A stretch of DNA of 8,961 bases from a virus (lineage: Duplodnaviria; Heunggongvirae; Uroviricota; Caudoviricetes): IMG/VR virus record IMGVR_UViG_2534682331_000006. One strand, written 5' to 3'. The notes beneath the pieces are model-generated. The model saw only the letters and a program-made list of their open reading frames with translations. It had not been told where the DNA came from and did not search any database. Shown piece after piece: positions 2,300 to 8,458 of this stretch (the first letter of the stretch is position 1; each line of letters opens with the position of its first letter). The position numbers were made by a program, and so were the translations under genes.

Positions 2300-2623
2300 A
2301 TGGCAAAGAATTTTGTAGAAGAAGGAAAAACGGTGGCGATTGTTGCCAGTGCAGCCATCAGCAGTGGAGATCTGGTGCAGGTGGGGGATGTTTTTGCGGT
2401 AGCGCTGACCGATATTCCACAGGGTGAAACAGGCGACGGCCTGACCGAAGGTGTGTTTATGCTGCCTAAGCTGAAAACGGATGACATGAAAACGGGTAAG
2501 AAGGTTTATCTGAAGTCCGGAAAAGTTCAGTTGACTAACAGCGGCTCTGATCCGCTGGTCGGGGTTGTCTGGGCAGATGCCGGAACCAGTGCAGAAGAAG
2601 TGCCGGTAAAACTCAATGTCTGA
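2300..2623 (+). CDS. Small head protein, DUF2190-like (possible capsid decoration/cement protein)
   Basis: 107-aa ORF directly downstream of the major capsid gene; ATG at 2300 preceded by GGAGAC (2289..2294). Gly/Val-rich, predicted beta-rich sequence (MAKNFVEEGKTVAIVASAAISSGDLVQVGDVFAVAL...) of the kind found next to HK97-type capsid genes. The longer ORF-track start at 2255 lacks an RBS and overlaps the terminator hairpins. Confidence 0.5.
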   Translation: MAKNFVEEGKTVAIVASAAISSGDLVQVGDVFAVALTDIPQGETGDGLTEGVFMLPKLKTDDMKTGKKVYLKSGKVQLTNSGSDPLVGVVWADAGTSAEEVPVKLNV

Positions 2624-2891
2624 TCCCTTTTCCCGGCTGGCAGCGCGTATGGATGCGATCACGGTCAGAAAGATGGGAAAGACAGCCTCGATTAATGATG
2701 TCGATATGACTGTGATCCCGGGAGAAACACTGGCAGAGCTGAATGCTCTGTCCGGACCTGCGGTCTCTCTGGTGGTGTTTTCTTCGGGATACCGCCCACG
2801 GCGCGGGGATCGCGTTGTTTATGACGGACAACAATGGACGGTCACACGGCATGAACGCTTTAACGGTAAGCCAATGATCTTTATTGAGTAA
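2616..2891 (+). CDS. Head-tail joining protein, lambda FII-like
   Basis: 91-aa ORF whose ATG overlaps the upstream stop (ATGTCTGA), suggesting translational coupling. Position between the head genes and Z, and the C-terminal motif RRGDRVVYDGQQWTV, resemble my recollection of lambda FII (RRGD...). Homology not verified by search. Confidence 0.6.
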   Translation: MSDPFSRLAARMDAITVRKMGKTASINDVDMTVIPGETLAELNALSGPAVSLVVFSSGYRPRRGDRVVYDGQQWTVTRHERFNGKPMIFIE

Positions 2892-3901: not shown

Positions 3902-4645
3902 ATGACCACACCAAATCCACTGGCAAAAACGAAAGGTGCGGGAACGACGTTCTGGATGTATACCGGCAACGGCGATGCGTTTGCGAACCCTTTGTCGGAC
4001 ACTGACTGGTTGCGTCTTGCGATGGTGAAGGATCTGCAACCTGGCGAAATGACCGCTGATGCAGAAGATGACACTTATCTCGATGATGAAGATGCAGACT
4101 GGAAAACGACAACCCAGGGGCAGAAATCCGTCGGTGATACTTCGGCGACGCTGGCCTGGCGTCCGGGGGACAGCGGGCAGAAAAAACTGGTTCAGTTGTT
4201 CGACTCCGGTGAAGTCTGCGCGTTTCGTATCAAATATCCCAACGGTACTGTTGATGTTTTCCGTGGCTGGCTGAGTTCACTGGGTAAAACCATTGCCTCA
4301 AAAGACGTGATGACCCGCACCGTGAAAATCAGCGGTGTGGGGCGTCCGTATCTGGCAGAGGAAGGCACTGAAACCGTGGGCGTTACCGGGCTGACGGTGG
4401 CACCGGCATCTGCCAGTGTAAAAGTGGGAGCAACCACCACGCTGACCTTTACAGTAAAACCTGACGGAGCCAGTGACAAAGCGATCAGTGTGCATTCGAC
4501 AGATCCACAGACTGCCACGGTGACCCTGAACGGGCTTGTGGCCACGGTGAAAGGCGTGAAGCAGGGCAGTGTCAGCATTGTGGGCATGACTTCTGACGGC
4601 GATTTTGTGGCAGTGGCTACGGTGGCTGTCAGCGCCGCAGGTTAA
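3902..4645 (+). CDS. V: Major tail protein V (lambda gpV family) with C-terminal Ig-like domain
   Basis: 247 aa (lambda V is about 246 aa); strong RBS AAGGAGGTGG at 3890..3899 before ATG 3902. MTTPNPLAKTKGAGTTFWMY..., YLDDEDADW and FPNGTVDVFRGW match lambda V closely. The C-terminal part (GVTGLTVAPASASVKVGATTTLTFTVKPDGASDK...) is Big_2/Ig-like, as in lambda V. The ORF-track start at 3827 is an in-frame extension overlapping U with no RBS. Confidence 0.92.
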   Translation: MTTPNPLAKTKGAGTTFWMYTGNGDAFANPLSDTDWLRLAMVKDLQPGEMTADAEDDTYLDDEDADWKTTTQGQKSVGDTSATLAWRPGDSGQKKLVQLFDSGEVCAFRIKYPNGTVDVFRGWLSSLGKTIASKDVMTRTVKISGVGRPYLAEEGTETVGVTGLTVAPASASVKVGATTTLTFTVKPDGASDKAISVHSTDPQTATVTLNGLVATVKGVKQGSVSIVGMTSDGDFVAVATVAVSAAG

Positions 4646-4665: not shown

Positions 4666-4689
4666 GCCCCGGTTATCCGGGGCTTTTTT
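4666..4689 (+). terminator. Rho-independent terminator downstream of V
   Basis: Perfect 7-bp GC-rich stem GCCCCGG (4666..4672) / CCGGGGC (4677..4683) with loop TTAT, immediately followed by TTTTTT (4684..4689). Lies between the V stop (4645) and the G RBS. Confidence 0.8.
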
Positions 4690-4702
4690 GCAGGTGGAGA
4701 AC

Positions 4703-5092
4703 ATGATGTTTCTGAAACAGGGCACGTTTAATTATGAAAAACAGTCCGTGGTGCTCAGTGAGCTGTCCGGGCTGCAGAGAATTGAATATCTGGCGTTTGT
4801 TCAGCAGCGAACGGCAAAGTTTGATGCCGGGGAGGGAGAACTGCCGGAGGCTGAACGACAGATTGCTTTTCTGCGGATGGGGATGGATATCAATGCCTGG
4901 CTGGTTTCCCGCTCACTGTGGAATGCGGATCAGTCTAAGGATGTAGAGACGCTTTGCGCATCCGTTATTACAACATGGTCGTATGATGCCCTGGGTGCGG
5001 GGGCGGAGATGGTTCTGTCGCTGAGCGGTATGGGGGCCATTGATAATGCCGGGGATGATGAGCATGAGGCGCTGACGCCGGAAAAGTCCTGA
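4703..5092 (+). CDS. G: Tail assembly chaperone G (lambda gpG family)
   Basis: 129 aa from ATG 4703, with a second ATG at 4706; RBS GGTGGAGA at 4693..4700. MMFLKQGTFNYEKQSVVLSELSGLQRIEYLAF resembles lambda G (MFLK...VTLSELSALQRIEHLA). The ORF-track start at 4664 would lie inside the upstream terminator. Confidence 0.85.
   Translation: MMFLKQGTFNYEKQSVVLSELSGLQRIEYLAFVQQRTAKFDAGEGELPEAERQIAFLRMGMDINAWLVSRSLWNADQSKDVETLCASVITTWSYDALGAGAEMVLSLSGMGAIDNAGDDEHEALTPEKS
5080..5086 (+). other. Candidate -1 programmed ribosomal frameshift site joining G to T (GGAAAAG)
   Basis: The T reading frame is -1 relative to G and is open only from 5068, so any shift must occur within 5068..5089. The only slippery-looking sequence there is G GAA AAG (G frame). 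Lambda uses G GGA AAG at the same place. A -1 slip on AAG to AAA would give ...ALTPEK-VLTREMQFVMRLAREF... Confidence 0.55.
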
Positions 5093-5100
5093 CGCGGGAA

Positions 5101-5430
5101 ATGCAGTTTGTCATGCGGCTTGCCCGGGAGTTCCGGCGGGCAGACTGGCGGCGGATGCTGTCGGAAATGTCGGCCACTGAGCTTGGTGAGTGGGGCGATT
5201 ATTTCCGGATGCAGAGCTTCAGTGATGTGTGGATGGATGCGCAGTTTGCCTCGCTGAAGGCATTGATCGTGAGAATGGTGTCCGGCAGCAGTGATGCTGC
5301 GGTGGCTGATTTCAGCCTTTTACCGGAAGAGAACGGGATACCGGAGCGAACGGACGAAGAACTGATGCATCTTGGAGAAGGTATTTCCGGAGGTGTGCGT
5401 TATGGACCAGATAGCCAACCTGGTCATTGA
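5101..5430 (+). CDS. T: Tail assembly chaperone T-domain ORF (lambda gpT family), expected to be made only as a G-T fusion by -1 frameshifting
   Basis: -1 frame ORF overlapping the 3' end of G; MRLAREFRRADWRRML... resembles the start of lambda T. No RBS precedes ATG 5101 and the frame is open upstream to 5068, consistent with frameshift expression. Coordinates are those of the ORF-track segment. Confidence 0.75.
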   Translation: MQFVMRLAREFRRADWRRMLSEMSATELGEWGDYFRMQSFSDVWMDAQFASLKALIVRMVSGSSDAAVADFSLLPEENGIPERTDEELMHLGEGISGGVRYGPDSQPGH

Positions 5431-8400
5431 TTTGGGGATTGATGCGGCAGAGTTTAAAAATGAAATTCCCCGTATCAAAAACCTTCTGAATGGTGCCGCC
5501 AGCGATGCAGAACGGTCTTCTGCCCGTATGCAGCGTTTTATGGAGCGTCAGACTCAGGCCGCCCGGCAGACAACGCAGGCGGCTTCTTCGGCTGCAACAG
5601 CCGCCTCCGTCCATGCGCAGACGGTGGAGAAGAACGCACAGGCTCATGAACGCATGGCCCGCGAGGTGGAGAAAACCCGCCAGCGCATGGAGGCGCTGAG
5701 CCAGAAAATGCGCGATGAACAGGCGCAGGCCATGGCTCTGGCGGAGGCTCAGGATAAAGCGGCTGCTGCGTTTTATCGTCAGATTGACAGTGTGAAACAG
5801 GCCAGTGCGGGGCTGCAGGAATTACAGCGTATTCAGCAGCAGATCCGACAGGCCAGAAACAGTGGCGGGATTGGTCAGCAGGATTATCTGGCGCTGATTT
5901 CTGAGGTTACGGCGAAAACCCGTGTTCTTACACAGGCTGAGGAAGAGGCTACCCGACAGAAAGTGGCGTTTATCCGTCAGCTTAAAGAGCAGGCAACCCG
6001 CCAGAATCTTTCTTCTTCTGAGTTGCTTCGTGCTAAGGCTGCCCAGCTGGGGGTAAGCAGTGCTGCAGAAGTGTATATCCGCAAAATGGAGCAGGCAGGA
6101 AAAGCCACGCATTCGCTGGGTCTGAAAAGTGCAGCGGCCCGCCAGGAGATAGGCGTTCTGATAGGTGAACTGGCTCGCGGCAATTTAGGTGCGCTGAGGG
6201 GATCCGGGATAACGCTGGCTAACCGTGCCGGATGGATAGACACACTGATGTCACCGAAAGGCATGATGCTGGGCGGGGTTATTGGCGGTATTGCCGCGGC
6301 CGTCTATGGTCTGGGTAAAGCCTGGTATGACGGTCAGAAGGAGGGGGAAGAATTTAACCGCCAGTTGTCGCTGACGGGGCATTATGCCGGAGTCACTGCC
6401 GGGCAGCTGTGGACGCTCAGTCGTGCTATTTCCGGGAATGGTATCACGCAACATGCTGCAGCCGGTGCGCTGGCTCAGGTGGTGGGGAGTGGTGCATTTC
6501 GTGGAAACGATATCGGTATGGTGGCGAGAGCTGCCGCACAGATGGAGCGATCGGTTGGCCAGTCGGTCAGCGATACCATAAGTCAGTTTAAGCGGCTGAA
6601 GGATGATCCTGTAAATGCCGCGAAGGCTCTGGACAATGAGCTGCATTTTCTTACTGCCACTCAGCTTGAGCAGATACGCGTCCTTGGGGAACAGGGGCGG
6701 TCCAGTGATGCGGCACGGATAGCCATGTCTGCACTGGCAGAGGAAACCGGTCGGCGTACTGCGGATATTGATAATAACCTCAATGCGCTGGGCAGTACGC
6801 TGAAGTATCTGTCTGATTTATGGAGTCGTTTCTGGGATGCGGCCATGAATATTGGTCGTGAAGACTCGCTGGATGAACAGATTTCCGCTTTACAGGAGAA
6901 AGTGTCGCGGGCGAAAAGACTCCCCTGGACGGCATCATCTTCTCAGGTTGAGTACGATCAGCAGCGTCTTAACGAGCTTCAGGAGAAAAAACGCCAGAAG
7001 GATTTGCAGGATGCAAAAGAGCAGGCAGAGCGGAATTATCAGGAGCAACAGAAACGCCGTAATGCTGAAAATGCTGCACTGAACCGGATGAATGAAACGG
7101 AAGCAGCACGACATCAGCGTGAAATTGCGCGTATTAATGCCATGCAGTACGCCGATCAGGCTGTCAGGGATGCGGCGATACAACGTGAAAATGAACGTTA
7201 CGAGAAAGCCCTGGCATCCGGTAAGAAAAAAACACGCGAAACCCGTAATGATGAGGCCACCCGGTTATTGCTGCAGTACAGTCAGCAACAGGCACAGGTG
7301 GAAGGACAGATTGCTGCTGCAAGACAGTCAGCAGGCATTGCCACTGACAGGATGACAGAAGCGCATAAACAGCTTCTGGCTCTGCAGCAGCGCATCAGCG
7401 ATCTGGACGGGAAAAAACTGACGGCAGATGAAAAGAGTGTGCTGGCCCGTAAAGATGAACTGATTCAGGCACTGACGCTGCTGGATGTAAAACAGCAGGA
7501 GCTTCAGAAACAGACGGCACTCAACGATCTGAAGAAAAAAACAATTCAGCTGACCAGTCAACTGGCTGAAGAAGAGCGCGCTCAGCGCCAGCAACATGAC
7601 CTGGATATCGCCACGGTGGGTATGGGTGATCAGCAGCGGCAGCGATATCAGGTACAACTGAGTCTTCGCCAGAAATACCAGCAACAGCTGGAGCAGTTGA
7701 GGCGGGATAGTGAGCAGAAAGGAACATATAACACGGATGACTACAGAAAGGCCGAGCAGGCGCTGACGGAGAGCCTGAACCGACAACTGAATGAGAATCG
7801 CCGTTATTGGCAACAGCTTGAAATTGCTCAGGGTGACTGGAAAAACGGAGTCCTGCGTGCACTCCAGAATGTCACTGAGAAAGCGGATAACACAGCCGGG
7901 ACAGTGGAACAGTTGTTCACGTCTGCGTTCAGTAGCATGAGTGACTGGCTGGCGACATTCTGTACTACAGGCAAACTCAATTTCAAATCCTTCACCTCTT
8001 CTGTGCTGTCAGATATGTCCAGAATCATGGCTCAGATAGCTTTAATGAAAGCGGTAAAAGGTATTGCTTCCGCGCTGCCTTTTGATTTTGTAGCCAATGC
8101 TGATGGCGGTGTTTATCAGTCGGCTGATTTGAGTCGCTACAGTGGCACGGTGGTTAACCGTCCGACGTTTTTTGCTTTTGCAAAAGGCGCGGGTGTGATG
8201 GGGGAAGCTGGACCTGAAGCCATTCTGCCACTGCGTCGTGGTGCTGACGGTAAGCTGGGGGTTGTGGCGGATATTGGTGGTTCAGGTATGGCGATGTTTG
8301 CCCCGCAGTACAACATCGAGATCAATAACGATGGCACGAACGGGCAGATAGGTCCGGCTGCCCTGAAGGTGGTTTATGACCTTGGGAAAAAAGCGGCAGC

Positions 8401-8458
8401 GGACTTTATGCAACAGCAGGCCCGTGATGGTGGTCGGTTAAGTGGAGCATATCGGTAA
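5402..8458 (+). CDS. H: Tail tape measure protein H (lambda gpH family)
   Basis: 1018 aa from ATG 5402; RBS GGAGG at 5389..5393. N-terminus MDQIANLVIDLGIDAAEF resembles lambda H (...GDLVVDLSLDAARF...), and the C-terminus ...INNDGTNGQIGPAALKVVYDLGKKAAADFMQQQARDGG matches the lambda H C-terminus. Long Ala/Gln/Glu/Arg-rich predicted coiled-coil regions in between. The ORF track's TTG start at 5372 is less likely. Confidence 0.92.
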   Translation: MDQIANLVIDLGIDAAEFKNEIPRIKNLLNGAASDAERSSARMQRFMERQTQAARQTTQAASSAATAASVHAQTVEKNAQAHERMAREVEKTRQRMEALSQKMRDEQAQAMALAEAQDKAAAAFYRQIDSVKQASAGLQELQRIQQQIRQARNSGGIGQQDYLALISEVTAKTRVLTQAEEEATRQKVAFIRQLKEQATRQNLSSSELLRAKAAQLGVSSAAEVYIRKMEQAGKATHSLGLKSAAARQEIGVLIGELARGNLGALRGSGITLANRAGWIDTLMSPKGMMLGGVIGGIAAAVYGLGKAWYDGQKEGEEFNRQLSLTGHYAGVTAGQLWTLSRAISGNGITQHAAAGALAQVVGSGAFRGNDIGMVARAAAQMERSVGQSVSDTISQFKRLKDDPVNAAKALDNELHFLTATQLEQIRVLGEQGRSSDAARIAMSALAEETGRRTADIDNNLNALGSTLKYLSDLWSRFWDAAMNIGREDSLDEQISALQEKVSRAKRLPWTASSSQVEYDQQRLNELQEKKRQKDLQDAKEQAERNYQEQQKRRNAENAALNRMNETEAARHQREIARINAMQYADQAVRDAAIQRENERYEKALASGKKKTRETRNDEATRLLLQYSQQQAQVEGQIAAARQSAGIATDRMTEAHKQLLALQQRISDLDGKKLTADEKSVLARKDELIQALTLLDVKQQELQKQTALNDLKKKTIQLTSQLAEEERAQRQQHDLDIATVGMGDQQRQRYQVQLSLRQKYQQQLEQLRRDSEQKGTYNTDDYRKAEQALTESLNRQLNENRRYWQQLEIAQGDWKNGVLRALQNVTEKADNTAGTVEQLFTSAFSSMSDWLATFCTTGKLNFKSFTSSVLSDMSRIMAQIALMKAVKGIASALPFDFVANADGGVYQSADLSRYSGTVVNRPTFFAFAKGAGVMGEAGPEAILPLRRGADGKLGVVADIGGSGMAMFAPQYNIEINNDGTNGQIGPAALKVVYDLGKKAAADFMQQQARDGGRLSGAYR

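What the first reader, a model, noticed from the sequence alone, without database searches (positions are those of the whole stretch)
5068..5092. G/T -1 frameshift window with a non-canonical slippery sequence (G GAA AAG instead of lambda's G GGA AAG)
The G and T homologues are arranged as in lambda: T is in the -1 frame, has no RBS, and its frame opens only 25 nt before the G stop. That forces any recoding event into 5068..5089, where the only A-rich slippery candidate is GGAAAAG. It is not a classical X XXY YYZ heptamer. A slip here would need either single-tRNA slippage of tRNA-Lys from AAG to AAA, or P-site re-pairing of tRNA-Glu on GGA through a G:U mismatch. Efficiency may therefore differ from lambda's roughly 4 percent, which would change the G to GT ratio that controls tail assembly.
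Basis: partly seen in the sequence, partly recalled or inferred. Interest (0 to 1): 0.5.

Follow-up and report, generated by a model that had tools for sequence, protein, structure and literature searches.

The report
Phage tail-chaperone G/GT frameshift site GGAAAAG
This is the programmed -1 ribosomal slip site that lets a lambda-like E. coli prophage make a small amount of a fused G-T tail-assembly chaperone; its slightly irregular slippery sequence GGAAAAG is conserved, and public records of phages N15 and LLS already mark the same heptamer as the slip site, so the finding is real but ordinary.

Summary
G (4703..5092) ends at TGA 5090-5092. The T frame is -1 and opens at 5068, after TGA 5065-5067. 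The only in-register slippery element in the 25-nt overlap is G GAA AAG (5080-5086).

The window is a mEp460/cdtI-type lambdoid prophage (99.8% identity). Its G/T junction occurs in 1844 of 5426 complete E. coli genomes.

The heptamer lies at the position homologous to lambda's G GGA AAG. It is not a recent mutation. GGAAAAG is kept in Gifsy-1, Gifsy-2, Fels-1, Citrobacter, Proteus and Providencia prophages, and in N15, phi80, HK225, mEp043 and LLS. The GenBank records of N15 and LLS annotate exactly this heptamer as the -1 slippery sequence.

Across about 30 lineages the site follows X-X-N-A-A-A-R. Stop codons in one frame or the other pin the shift to these 7 nt. ATG 5101, the annotated T start, is specific to this lineage and has no usable RBS.

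The most likely mechanism is tRNA-Lys AAG-to-AAA re-pairing, with tRNA-Glu re-pairing on GGA through a central G.U pair. The product would be a 242-aa G-T fusion. Efficiency is unknown. In vitro, G GAA AAG is much less slippery than G GGA AAG.

A weak upstream SD-like GAGG is a possible stimulator. No downstream structure was found. Verdict: already known, low to moderate interest.

The parts
4703..5092 (+). Gene G: tail assembly chaperone, 129 aa, zero frame. Stop TGA at 5090-5092.
   Evidence: Translation. Pfam PF06894 Phage_TAC_2, E = 1.8e-39. Annotated as minor tail protein G / gpG in mEp460, Tritos and RefSeq E. coli.
5080..5086 (+). Slippery heptamer G GAA AAG, the inferred site of the -1 shift. 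tRNA-Glu would move GAA to GGA and tRNA-Lys AAG to AAA.
   Evidence: Sequence. Homologous position to lambda G GGA AAG. Invariant in 32 junction variants of this phage group. The same heptamer at the same position is annotated as the slippery sequence in N15 and LLS. The family consensus is X-X-N-A-A-A-R.
5065..5067 (+). TGA stop in the T (-1) frame. It is the 5' limit of the recoding window.
5090..5092 (+). TGA stop of G, one sense codon (TCC) after the heptamer. It is the 3' limit of the recoding window.
   Evidence: In 32 of 117 unique junctions the 0-frame stop (TAG wherever it was read) follows the heptamer directly, and in 42 it follows after one codon.
5086..5430 (+). T segment, read in the -1 frame after the shift: 114 aa, VLTREMQF...QPGH, stop at 5428-5430. 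With G residues 1-128 it gives a predicted 242-aa G-T fusion.
   Evidence: Pfam PF06223 Phage_tail_T, E = 5e-15. T-frame codon periodicity and an invariant Glu codon (GA at +18/+19 in 20 of 20 lineages) lie upstream of ATG 5101.
5101..5103 (+). ATG used as the start of a separate 'T' CDS in public annotation. Probably not a functional start.
   Evidence: Annotated as the start in mEp460, Tritos and PGAP. Only this lineage has a start codon at this position, and 11 of 20 lineages have no ATG/GTG/TTG in the first 60 nt of the T frame. GGGAA abuts the ATG with no spacer.
5066..5069 (+). SD-like GAGG, 10 nt upstream of the heptamer. Candidate weak stimulator, not established.
   Evidence: AGG sits at offset -13 in 9 of 18 non-canonical lineages, against at most 3 at any other offset from -120 to -3. 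The mean anti-SD duplex energy is -5.07 kcal/mol there, against -1.65 +/- 0.95 overall. In the window itself the -5.6 kcal/mol value is matched by 31% of positions in its own G ORF. N15/phi80-type GGAAAAG sites lack the element.
3902..4645 (+). Major tail (tube) protein V homologue with a C-terminal Big_2 domain. It is the partner of the T domain. Context.
   Evidence: Pfam Phage_TTP_12 (1.2e-66) and Big_2. Annotation.
5402..8458 (+). Tape measure protein H homologue, the partner of the G domain. Its start overlaps the end of T. Context.
   Evidence: Pfam TMP_2, TMP_4 and Tape_meas_lam_C. Annotation.

Best explanation
5080-5086 is the programmed -1 ribosomal frameshift site of the tail assembly chaperone pair of a mEp460/cdtI-type lambdoid prophage.

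Most ribosomes read G to its stop at 5090-5092 and release a 129-aa gpG. A minority slip back one nucleotide on G GAA AAG. tRNA-Lys (mnm5s2UUU), which pairs poorly with AAG, re-pairs on AAA. tRNA-Glu re-pairs from GAA onto GGA, keeping the first and third positions and forming a central G.U pair. Translation then continues in the T frame (GUC CUG ACG...) to 5430. The product is a 242-aa G-T fusion with the junction ...TPEK-VLTRE.

By analogy with lambda, the G part binds the tape measure protein and the T part recruits the major tail protein. The low GT:G ratio is set by the slip frequency.

Shown here: gene identities, frames, the limits of the recoding window, positional homology to lambda's site, deep conservation of the heptamer, and the absence of a conserved T start.

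Inferred: that the shift occurs, its frequency, and whether one or both tRNAs slip.
For: 1. G, T, V and H are identified by Pfam and occur in lambda order.
2. T is in the -1 frame and open only from 5068. A_AAG is the only in-register slippery tetramer in the overlap.
3. The gapless alignment of post-shift peptides with lambda puts the heptamer at the homologous position.
4. GGAAAAG is kept while flanks diverge: in Gifsy-1, Gifsy-2 and Fels-1 at 68-70% nt identity, in Citrobacter, Proteus and Providencia at 44-66% T identity, and in N15, phi80, HK225, mEp043 and LLS.
5. In 117 unique junctions, plus 10 further phage records, the site is always X-X-N-A-A-A-R. The T-frame Lys codon is always AAA. 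The base before the P-site codon always equals that codon's first base, although the codon carrying it encodes P, L, A, V, K, M, S or D.
6. A T-frame stop lies directly 5' of the heptamer in L268, and a 0-frame stop (TAG) lies directly 3' of it in 32 junctions. Together they pin the event to these 7 nt.
7. There is no conserved start codon for T, and T-frame coding conservation extends upstream of ATG 5101.
8. The N15 and LLS records annotate this heptamer as the -1 site, and the Gifsy-1 and Gifsy-2 records call T part of a frameshift hybrid.
9. The lambda precedent, with a G:GT ratio of about 30:1 that is needed for tail assembly, is summarised in PMC5009743.
Against: There is no experimental evidence for this phage; all support is comparative.

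In a reconstituted E. coli translation system, AUG GAA AAG gave mainly 0-frame product and was used as the 'less slippery' control against G GGA AAG (PMC6924986).

Z_ZZN tetramers without a stimulator are barely above background in vivo, 0.147% against 0.112% (PMC4066793).

No significant downstream RNA structure is present: z = -0.17 for 5087-5170. There is no Rfam match. How a useful level of shifting is reached is therefore unexplained.

Public annotation, including PGAP, treats T as an independent gene.
Confidence: 0.85

Rival explanations
1. Hexanucleotide (single-tRNA) mechanism. Only tRNA-Lys slips from AAG to AAA, either in the A site or in the P site after translocation. tRNA-Glu does not re-pair and merely releases the third base of GAA. 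The product is identical, so this is a rival sub-mechanism rather than a rival identity.
For: NNA_AAG hexamers and A_AAG tetramers are documented -1 sites in bacteria, for example B. subtilis cdd A_CGA_AAG and IS1222 G_CGA_AAG. Their efficiency depends on the wobble properties of the tRNA that reads the 5' codon (PMC5009743). Heptamer position 3 takes all four bases in this family, GNA = Glu, Gly, Ala or Val. For GCA and GUA this leaves a true central mismatch after a tandem slip. In many lineages a stop codon directly follows the heptamer, which fits P-site slippage with a slowly decoded A site.
Against: Position 1 always equals position 2 (GG, AA or CC) in about 30 lineages, although it is the wobble base of codons for eight different amino acids. 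That is expected only if the P-site tRNA re-pairs its first anticodon-codon position. [quoted passage not shown]
Confidence: 0.35
2. The weak heptamer is boosted by an internal Shine-Dalgarno-like GAGG (5066-5069), 10 nt upstream, which pairs with 16S rRNA in the elongating ribosome as in dnaX. The nearby G stop codon may also contribute.
For: There is a position-specific island. AGG sits at offset -13 in 9 of 18 non-canonical lineages, against at most 3 at any other offset. The mean anti-SD duplex energy is -5.07 kcal/mol, against -1.65 +/- 0.95 elsewhere. Strong GGAGG elements occur at the same spacing in the Pantoea and L302 lineages. The lambda and Providencia rustigianii (L021) lineages, which have canonical heptamers, lack it. 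Upstream SD stimulators of bacterial -1 shifting are established (refs 32-34 in PMC4066793; dnaX description). The dnaX spacing of about 10 nt is from my own knowledge of Larsen et al. 1994.
Against: N15, HK225, phi80, LLS and mEp043 use the same GGAAAAG with no AGG at that spacing and with the stop five codons away. In the window itself GAGG gives only -5.6 kcal/mol, and 31% of positions in its own G ORF match or beat that. The GA of GAGG is a Glu codon conserved across the whole family (EPVT... in lambda and N15), and G's C-terminal tail is acidic, so GAG-G arises easily. The association follows clades, so it may reflect only one or two evolutionary events.
Confidence: 0.3
3. T is made on its own from ATG 5101, as GenBank and PGAP annotate it, by independent initiation or by re-initiation after termination at UGA 5090-5092. 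No frameshift is used.
For: An ATG in the T frame lies 9 nt after the G stop. All close public records annotate a separate 109-aa CDS.
Against: This ATG is CTG, CTT, CAT, CGN or ATT in every other lineage. Eleven of 20 lineages have no ATG/GTG/TTG in the first 60 nt of the T frame. There is no SD at a usable spacing. T-frame conservation, including an invariant Glu codon, starts upstream of the ATG. In lambda, T sequence is made only as the GT fusion (my own knowledge of Levin et al. 1993; the review text seen names only gpG and gpGT as products).
Confidence: 0.05
4. The frame change happens at the RNA level. RNA polymerase would slip on the A run of GGAAAAG and delete one A in a fraction of transcripts.
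For: The site contains a short homopolymer, A4 (A5 in the GGAAAAA lineages).
Against: Known transcriptional slippage sites need longer runs, typically 7 or more (my own knowledge; general coverage in PMC5009743). Lambda's homologous site has only A3. The conserved register, X1 = X2 and AAA-R in codon phase, is what tRNA re-pairing predicts, not polymerase slippage.
Confidence: 0.02

Closest known systems
Phage lambda gpG/gpGT programmed -1 frameshift at G GGA AAG (Levin, Hendrix & Casjens 1993; Xu, Hendrix & Duda 2004, 2013, 2014)
   Same: The gene order V-G-T-H is the same, and so are the Pfam families (Phage_TAC_2, Phage_tail_T). T is in the -1 frame and has no start of its own. The slip site is at the homologous position, and the same distance separates the heptamer from the conserved LARE..DW motif.
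   Different: Heptamer position 3 is A rather than G, so the P-site tRNA is tRNA-Glu with a central G.U pair after the slip, instead of tRNA-Gly with full re-pairing. The G stop is 1 codon after the heptamer here and 5 codons after it in lambda. An SD-like GAGG lies 10 nt upstream here, where lambda has GAGC.
Phage N15 genes 14/15, with phi80, HK225, mEp043 and LLS: G/T homologues whose records annotate GGAAAAG as the -1 slippery sequence
   Same: The heptamer GGAAAAG is identical and sits at the identical aligned position in the same gene pair. N15 and LLS carry explicit misc_features for it, and LLS has a joined CDS.
   Different: T identity to the window is only 42-46%. In these phages the G stop is 5 codons downstream, as in lambda, and there is no AGG at the -13 offset.
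Salmonella prophages Gifsy-1, Gifsy-2 and Fels-1
   Same: These are the closest diverged relatives, at 68-70% nt identity. The core CCGGAAAAG(T/C)CCTGA is identical, with one codon and then the stop. The Gifsy-1 and Gifsy-2 records describe T as part of a G frameshift hybrid.
   Different: The flanks differ, the T-frame ATG is absent, and the SD-like element is AGGA or GAGGA at a spacing of 10-13 nt.
Near-canonical -1 sites: NNA_AAG hexamers and A_AAG tetramers in bacteria (cdd A_CGA_AAG, IS1222 G_CGA_AAG), G_GA-type heptamers in RNA viruses, and the PRFect 'twofour' and 'twoonefour' motifs in tail-chaperone genes
   Same: The slip is driven by tRNA-Lys on A_AAG, with imperfect or no re-pairing of the upstream tRNA. 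GGAAAA fits 'twofour', and the GGCAAAA of sister lineages fits 'twoonefour'.
   Different: Those bacterial cases usually have a demonstrated stimulator, either a pseudoknot or an SD. Here no downstream structure is detectable and the SD-like element is weak.
E. coli dnaX A AAA AAG frameshift signal
   Same: Both are -1 shifts on a Lys AAG A-site codon with an SD-like sequence about 10 nt upstream.
   Different: dnaX has a perfect heptamer, a strong downstream stem-loop and very high efficiency. Here the P-site codon is imperfect, there is no stem-loop, and a low level is presumably all that is required.

Membership tests
Lambda-type G/GT tail assembly chaperone with programmed -1 frameshift | An upstream ORF homologous to gpG lies between the major tail protein gene and the tape measure gene. 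| tested here: met
   PF06894 Phage_TAC_2 at 1.8e-39. It is flanked by Phage_TTP_12/Big_2 on one side and TMP_2/Tape_meas_lam_C on the other.
Lambda-type G/GT tail assembly chaperone with programmed -1 frameshift | A downstream ORF homologous to T lies in the -1 frame and overlaps the 3' end of G. | tested here: met
   PF06223 Phage_tail_T at 5e-15. The frame opens at 5068, 25 nt before the end of the G stop.
Lambda-type G/GT tail assembly chaperone with programmed -1 frameshift | T has no conserved translational start of its own. | tested here: met
   ATG 5101 occurs only in this lineage. Eleven of 20 lineages have no start codon in the first 60 nt of the T frame. No SD is at a usable spacing.
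Lambda-type G/GT tail assembly chaperone with programmed -1 frameshift | A slippery sequence lies in the overlap and is conserved at the position homologous to lambda's. | tested here: met
   GGAAAAG at 5080-5086 aligns with lambda GGGAAAG. The motif X-X-N-A-A-A-R is invariant in 117 junctions and 10 further records.
Lambda-type G/GT tail assembly chaperone with programmed -1 frameshift | A G-T fusion protein is made at a few percent of G and is required for tail assembly. | not testable with these tools
   This needs a reporter assay, mass spectrometry or genetics. The lambda data are cited from PMC5009743.
Canonical X_XXY_YYZ tandem-slippage heptamer | Both tRNAs keep their two non-wobble pairs after the -1 shift (XXX and YYY). 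| tested here: not met
   In G GAA AAG the P-site tRNA-Glu on GGA has a central G.U pair. Peng et al. describe this as a second-position mismatch.
A_AAG tetranucleotide / NNA_AAG hexanucleotide -1 sites | AAG is the 0-frame codon and is preceded by A, so tRNA-Lys can re-pair on AAA. | tested here: met
   The register GAA AAG is in the G frame. This class is described in PMC5009743 and PMC4066793.
dnaX/IS911-type stimulated -1 frameshift signal | An SD-like sequence lies about 10-14 nt 5' of the shift site. | tested here: inconclusive
   GAGG lies at 5066-5069 with a 10-nt spacer. It is enriched at that position across lineages, but it is weak in the window and absent from N15-type GGAAAAG sites.
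dnaX/IS911-type stimulated -1 frameshift signal | A stable stem-loop or pseudoknot lies 5-9 nt 3' of the shift site. | tested here: not met
   Region 5087-5170 folds no better than shuffled sequence (z = -0.17), and 5040-5200 gives z = -0.90. There is no Rfam match.

The most novel reading that the evidence does not exclude
The lambda-type tail-chaperone family as a whole obeys a relaxed rule, X-X-N-A-A-A-R. Only the first base of the P-site codon would need to be re-pairable, while the middle base may be Watson-Crick (G), wobble (A) or mismatched (C, U). Different clades would then tune the G:GT ratio with different helpers. The mEp460/Gifsy/Proteus/Kluyvera clade would use an SD-like AGG about 10 nt upstream and a stop codon 0-1 codons downstream. 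The N15 and lambda clade would use neither. If this is true, natural phages rely on a heptamer that biochemists use as a non-slippery control. The family would then offer a graded natural series for dissecting P-site requirements of bacterial -1 frameshifting.
Probability: 0.3. Interest if true: 0.45.

Novelty: already known. Interest (0 to 1): 0.25.

Why it matters
The practical point concerns annotation. This module is present in about a third of complete E. coli genomes. PGAP and most phage records annotate T as an independent 109-aa gene starting at a non-conserved ATG. The real product is almost certainly a 242-aa G-T fusion made by a -1 shift at GGAAAAG.

There is also a small mechanistic tension. 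The heptamer is near-canonical, performs poorly in a purified translation system, and has no detectable RNA structure to help it. Even so, it is the most widespread variant in this chaperone family. Measuring its in vivo efficiency, together with that of its natural GGC, GGT and GGG variants, would show how much P-site re-pairing bacterial ribosomes really need and how low a GT:G ratio tail assembly tolerates.

None of this changes the known biology of G/GT.

Tried and rejected
1. Downstream stimulatory structure. Regions 5087-5170 and 5040-5200 fold no better than shuffled sequence (z = -0.17 and -0.90). A 4-bp hairpin GGCG-CUGA-CGCC (5068-5079) just 5' of the heptamer, and a GCCGGAA/TTCCGGC inverted repeat (5077-5083 with 5131-5137), were seen by eye. 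The flanks that would form them differ in Gifsy-1 and Fels-1, so I treat them as chance.

2. Rfam search of the whole window found no family at gathering score.

3. SD-like compensation for the weak heptamer looked attractive after the first 20 lineages. I downgraded it when N15, phi80, HK225, LLS and mEp043 turned out to have GGAAAAG without the element. The GA of GAGG also proved to be a family-wide Glu codon.

4. Independent initiation at ATG 5101 is rejected on conservation grounds.

5. Transcriptional slippage is rejected because the A run is too short.

6. A recent mutation from GGGAAAG is rejected by the T tree.

7. Literature. Xu et al. 2004 (Mol Cell) and Licznar et al. 2003 (EMBO J) are not held in the library. 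I therefore could not check whether they list GGAAAAG or give an efficiency for GAA_AAG. A full-text search for 'GGAAAAG' plus 'frameshift' returned 27 papers; the 20 listed were unrelated.

8. Some IMG/VR contigs were fetched more than once under different locus ids. Locus counts are therefore inflated, and I report unique junction sequences instead.
Full report
**What is in the window**

- G runs from ATG 4703 to TGA 5090-5092 and ends ...GCG CTG ACG CCG GAA AAG TCC TGA.
- The -1 frame is closed by TGA at 5065-5067 and then stays open to 5430.
- The two frames therefore overlap only in 5068..5092.
- Within that overlap the only 0-frame-registered slippery element is A_AAG, inside G GAA AAG at 5080-5086. 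There is no X_XXY_YYZ heptamer.

A -1 slip there gives ...TPEK-VLTREMQF... and a 242-aa fusion: 128 aa from G and 114 aa from the T frame.

Pfam identifies all four genes.
- G is Phage_TAC_2 (1.8e-39).
- The -1 ORF is Phage_tail_T (5e-15).
- The upstream gene is a lambda-type tail tube protein with a Big_2 domain.
- The downstream gene is a tape measure protein.

**Origin of the window**

The region is 99.3-99.8% identical to E. coli phages mEp460, Tritos, cdtI and relatives. A 201-nt stretch around the junction occurs in 1844 of 5426 complete E. coli genomes. In mEp460, Tritos and the PGAP-annotated genome I opened, T is annotated as a separate CDS starting at ATG 5101.

**Homology of the slip site to lambda's**

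In lambda the sequence is GCG GGA AAG TGT TCG ACG GTG AGC TGA. After the shift lambda reads GKVFDGELSFALKLAREMGRPDW, and the window reads GKVLTREMQFVMRLAREFRRADW. The two align without a gap. The two heptamers therefore occupy the same position and differ by one base: GGG to GGA in the T frame, and Gly GGA to Glu GAA in the G frame.

**Conserved, not a recent mutation**

Gifsy-1, Gifsy-2 and Fels-1 are 68-70% identical at the nucleotide level. All keep CCGGAAAAG(T/C)CCTGA while their flanks diverge.

I collected loci from one genome-collection scan and five IMG/VR scans, seeded with T proteins of the window, lambda, Proteus, Pantoea and Kluyvera. I anchored them on the DW[RK]xML motif of T. 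This gave 117 unique 180-nt junctions in 20 lineages.

The heptamers at the aligned position are listed below.

| Heptamer | Unique junctions | Position of the 0-frame stop |
|---|---|---|
| GGAAAAG | 57 | one sense codon later in 42; directly after in 15 (Proteus, Providencia heimbachae) |
| GGGAAAG | 35 | five codons later (lambda types) |
| GGCAAAA | 13 | directly after |
| GGTAAAG | 8 | five codons later |
| GGAAAAA | 3 | directly after |
| GGGAAAA | 1 | directly after |

Where the stop follows the heptamer directly it reads TAG.

Ten further phage records add more variants.
- N15, HK225, phi80, LLS and mEp043 have GGAAAAG.
- Two Stx phages have AAAAAAG.
- Stx2a_JNE090861 and the lambda-like phage ev207 have GGGAAAG.
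- A Vibrio phage has C CCA AAA, displaced by one codon.

On a neighbour-joining tree of T, GGAAAAG occurs in both major clades. Lambda's GGGAAAG is nested within the lambda+Stx subclade. GGAAAAG is therefore at least as likely to be ancestral as GGGAAAG.

**What the comparison says about mechanism**

Across all lineages the site is X-X-N-A-A-A-R. Four features bear on the mechanism.
- The T-frame Lys codon is always AAA and never AAG. Protein coding does not require that, but an A_AAR slip of tRNA-Lys does.
- Position 3 takes all four bases. The 0-frame P-site codon is GAA, GGA, GCA or GUA.
- Position 1 always equals position 2. Yet position 1 is the wobble base of codons for P, L, A, V, K, M, S or D. 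This points to an RNA-level constraint: the P-site tRNA keeps its first anticodon-codon pair after the slip.
- One Pantoea-type locus (L268) has a T-frame TAA directly 5' of the heptamer, and 32 junctions have a 0-frame stop (TAG) directly 3' of it. Taken across the family, the shift is confined to exactly these seven bases.

For the window this means tRNA-Lys moves AAG to AAA.

A pure Lys-only slip (the NNA_AAG hexamer model; PMC5009743) gives the same protein and cannot be excluded. The X1 = X2 rule argues against it.

**T is not made on its own**

The codon at the position of ATG 5101 is CTG, CTT, CAT, CGN or ATT in every other lineage. Eleven of 20 lineages have no ATG/GTG/TTG in the first 60 nt of the T frame. 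The only purine-rich stretch before ATG 5101 (GGGAA, 5096-5100) abuts it. Codon periodicity in the T frame, and an invariant Glu codon at +18 to +20, lie upstream of that ATG.

**Stimulators**

No downstream structure stands out: z = -0.17 for 5087-5170 and z = -0.90 for 5040-5200. There is no Rfam hit.

Upstream, GAGG at 5066-5069 lies 10 nt before the heptamer.
- Among 18 non-canonical lineages, AGG sits at offset -13 in nine, against at most three at any other offset from -120 to -3.
- The mean anti-SD duplex energy dips to -5.07 kcal/mol there, against -1.65 +/- 0.95 overall.
- The two canonical lineages in that set, lambda and L021, lack it.

This resembles the dnaX arrangement, but the case is weak.
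- The window's own GAGG (-5.6 kcal/mol) is matched by 31% of positions in its own G ORF.
- The GA belongs to a Glu codon conserved across the whole family.
- N15, HK225, phi80, LLS and mEp043 use GGAAAAG without any AGG at that spacing and with the stop five codons away.

I keep it as a hypothesis at about 0.3.

**Comparison with what is known**

The lambda G/GT frameshift is textbook. Its roughly 30:1 ratio is needed for tail assembly, and it is widely conserved in long-tailed phages (PMC5009743).

The specific heptamer is not new either.
- GenBank N15 (NC_001901) carries a misc_feature 'slippery sequence for -1 translational frameshift' at 10027..10033, which reads GGAAAAG.
- Phage LLS carries 'minus-one programmed translational frameshift site GGAAAAG' with a joined CDS.
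- The Gifsy-1 and Gifsy-2 records describe T as part of a frameshift hybrid.

Departures from XXX in the P-site half are catalogued in the Atkins et al. review. They include G_GA-type sites in several RNA viruses, as well as NNA_AAG and A_AAG sites in bacteria. PRFect lists 'twofour' and 'twoonefour' motifs in tail-chaperone frameshifts and raises G:U pairing.

**What remains open**

The open question is efficiency.
- In a reconstituted E. coli system, G GAA AAG gave mainly 0-frame product and served as the less slippery control for G GGA AAG (PMC6924986).
- Tetramers alone are at background in vivo, and A_AAG reaches 5.6% only with a strong pseudoknot (PMC4066793).

How this widespread site reaches a useful level, or how little GT is actually needed, has not been measured as far as I could find.

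**Verdict**

The site is a long-annotated variant of a well-known system. Its main practical consequence is that T is mis-annotated as an independent gene in most records. Interest is low to moderate.

Noticed in passing
window 4666-4692 (+): There is a strong intrinsic-terminator-like hairpin, GCCCCGG-TTAT-CCGGGGC, followed by TTTTTT. It lies in the 57-nt gap between the major tail protein gene (ends 4645) and G (starts 4703). mEp460 annotates it as a rho-independent terminator. N15 and HK225 annotate a stem-loop or terminator at the same V/G boundary. It could set the V to G/GT/H expression ratio by partial termination.
   Followed up: partly
related loci L015, L016, L211, L277, L289, L292 (GGCAAAA-TAG); L276, L291, L294 (GGAAAAA-TAG); L021 (GGGAAAA-TAG): Every heptamer that ends in A is followed directly by the 0-frame stop TAG. 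Heptamers that end in G are followed by TAG or by a sense codon. This suggests that the weaker A_AAA slip depends on a stop codon in the A site.
   Followed up: partly
related loci L022-L025, L267-L273 (Pantoea-type): The heptamer is G GUA AAG, which leaves a true central mismatch after a P-site slip. It has a full GGAGG exactly 10 nt upstream (-11 kcal/mol anti-SD duplex) and a G stop five codons downstream. This is the best candidate in the family for an SD-stimulated variant.
   Followed up: partly
window 5087 and the aligned column +7 in the lineages examined: The base directly 3' of the heptamer is a pyrimidine in all 20 lineage representatives (T in 15, C in 5) and in the further lambda/N15-type records. 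It could be a 3'-context effect on shifting, or it could simply reflect the Val/Ala/Ile codon of the T frame.
   Followed up: no
window 5402-5430: The tape measure gene starts at ATG 5402, 29 nt before the T-frame stop at 5428-5430. The end of the GT fusion therefore overlaps the start of H. The same overlap is annotated in mEp460, Gifsy-1, Fels-1 and N15.
   Followed up: no
window 2519-2525 (+), 2627-2633 (-), 6098-6104 (+): Three more copies of GGAAAAG occur in the window, 4 in all against 1.25 expected. The two on the + strand are in the register GGA AAA G within their ORFs. They are not in the G GAA AAG slip register and have no obvious -1 ORF to feed.
   Followed up: partly
locus L008 (JAEWTL010000010.1) and L013 (JAGTSE010000010.1): Metagenome-assembled genomes labelled 'Bacillota bacterium' and 'Proteobacteria bacterium' (soil) carry this E. 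coli prophage module at 98-100% T identity. The likely explanation is binning contamination by an Enterobacteriaceae contig.
   Followed up: no
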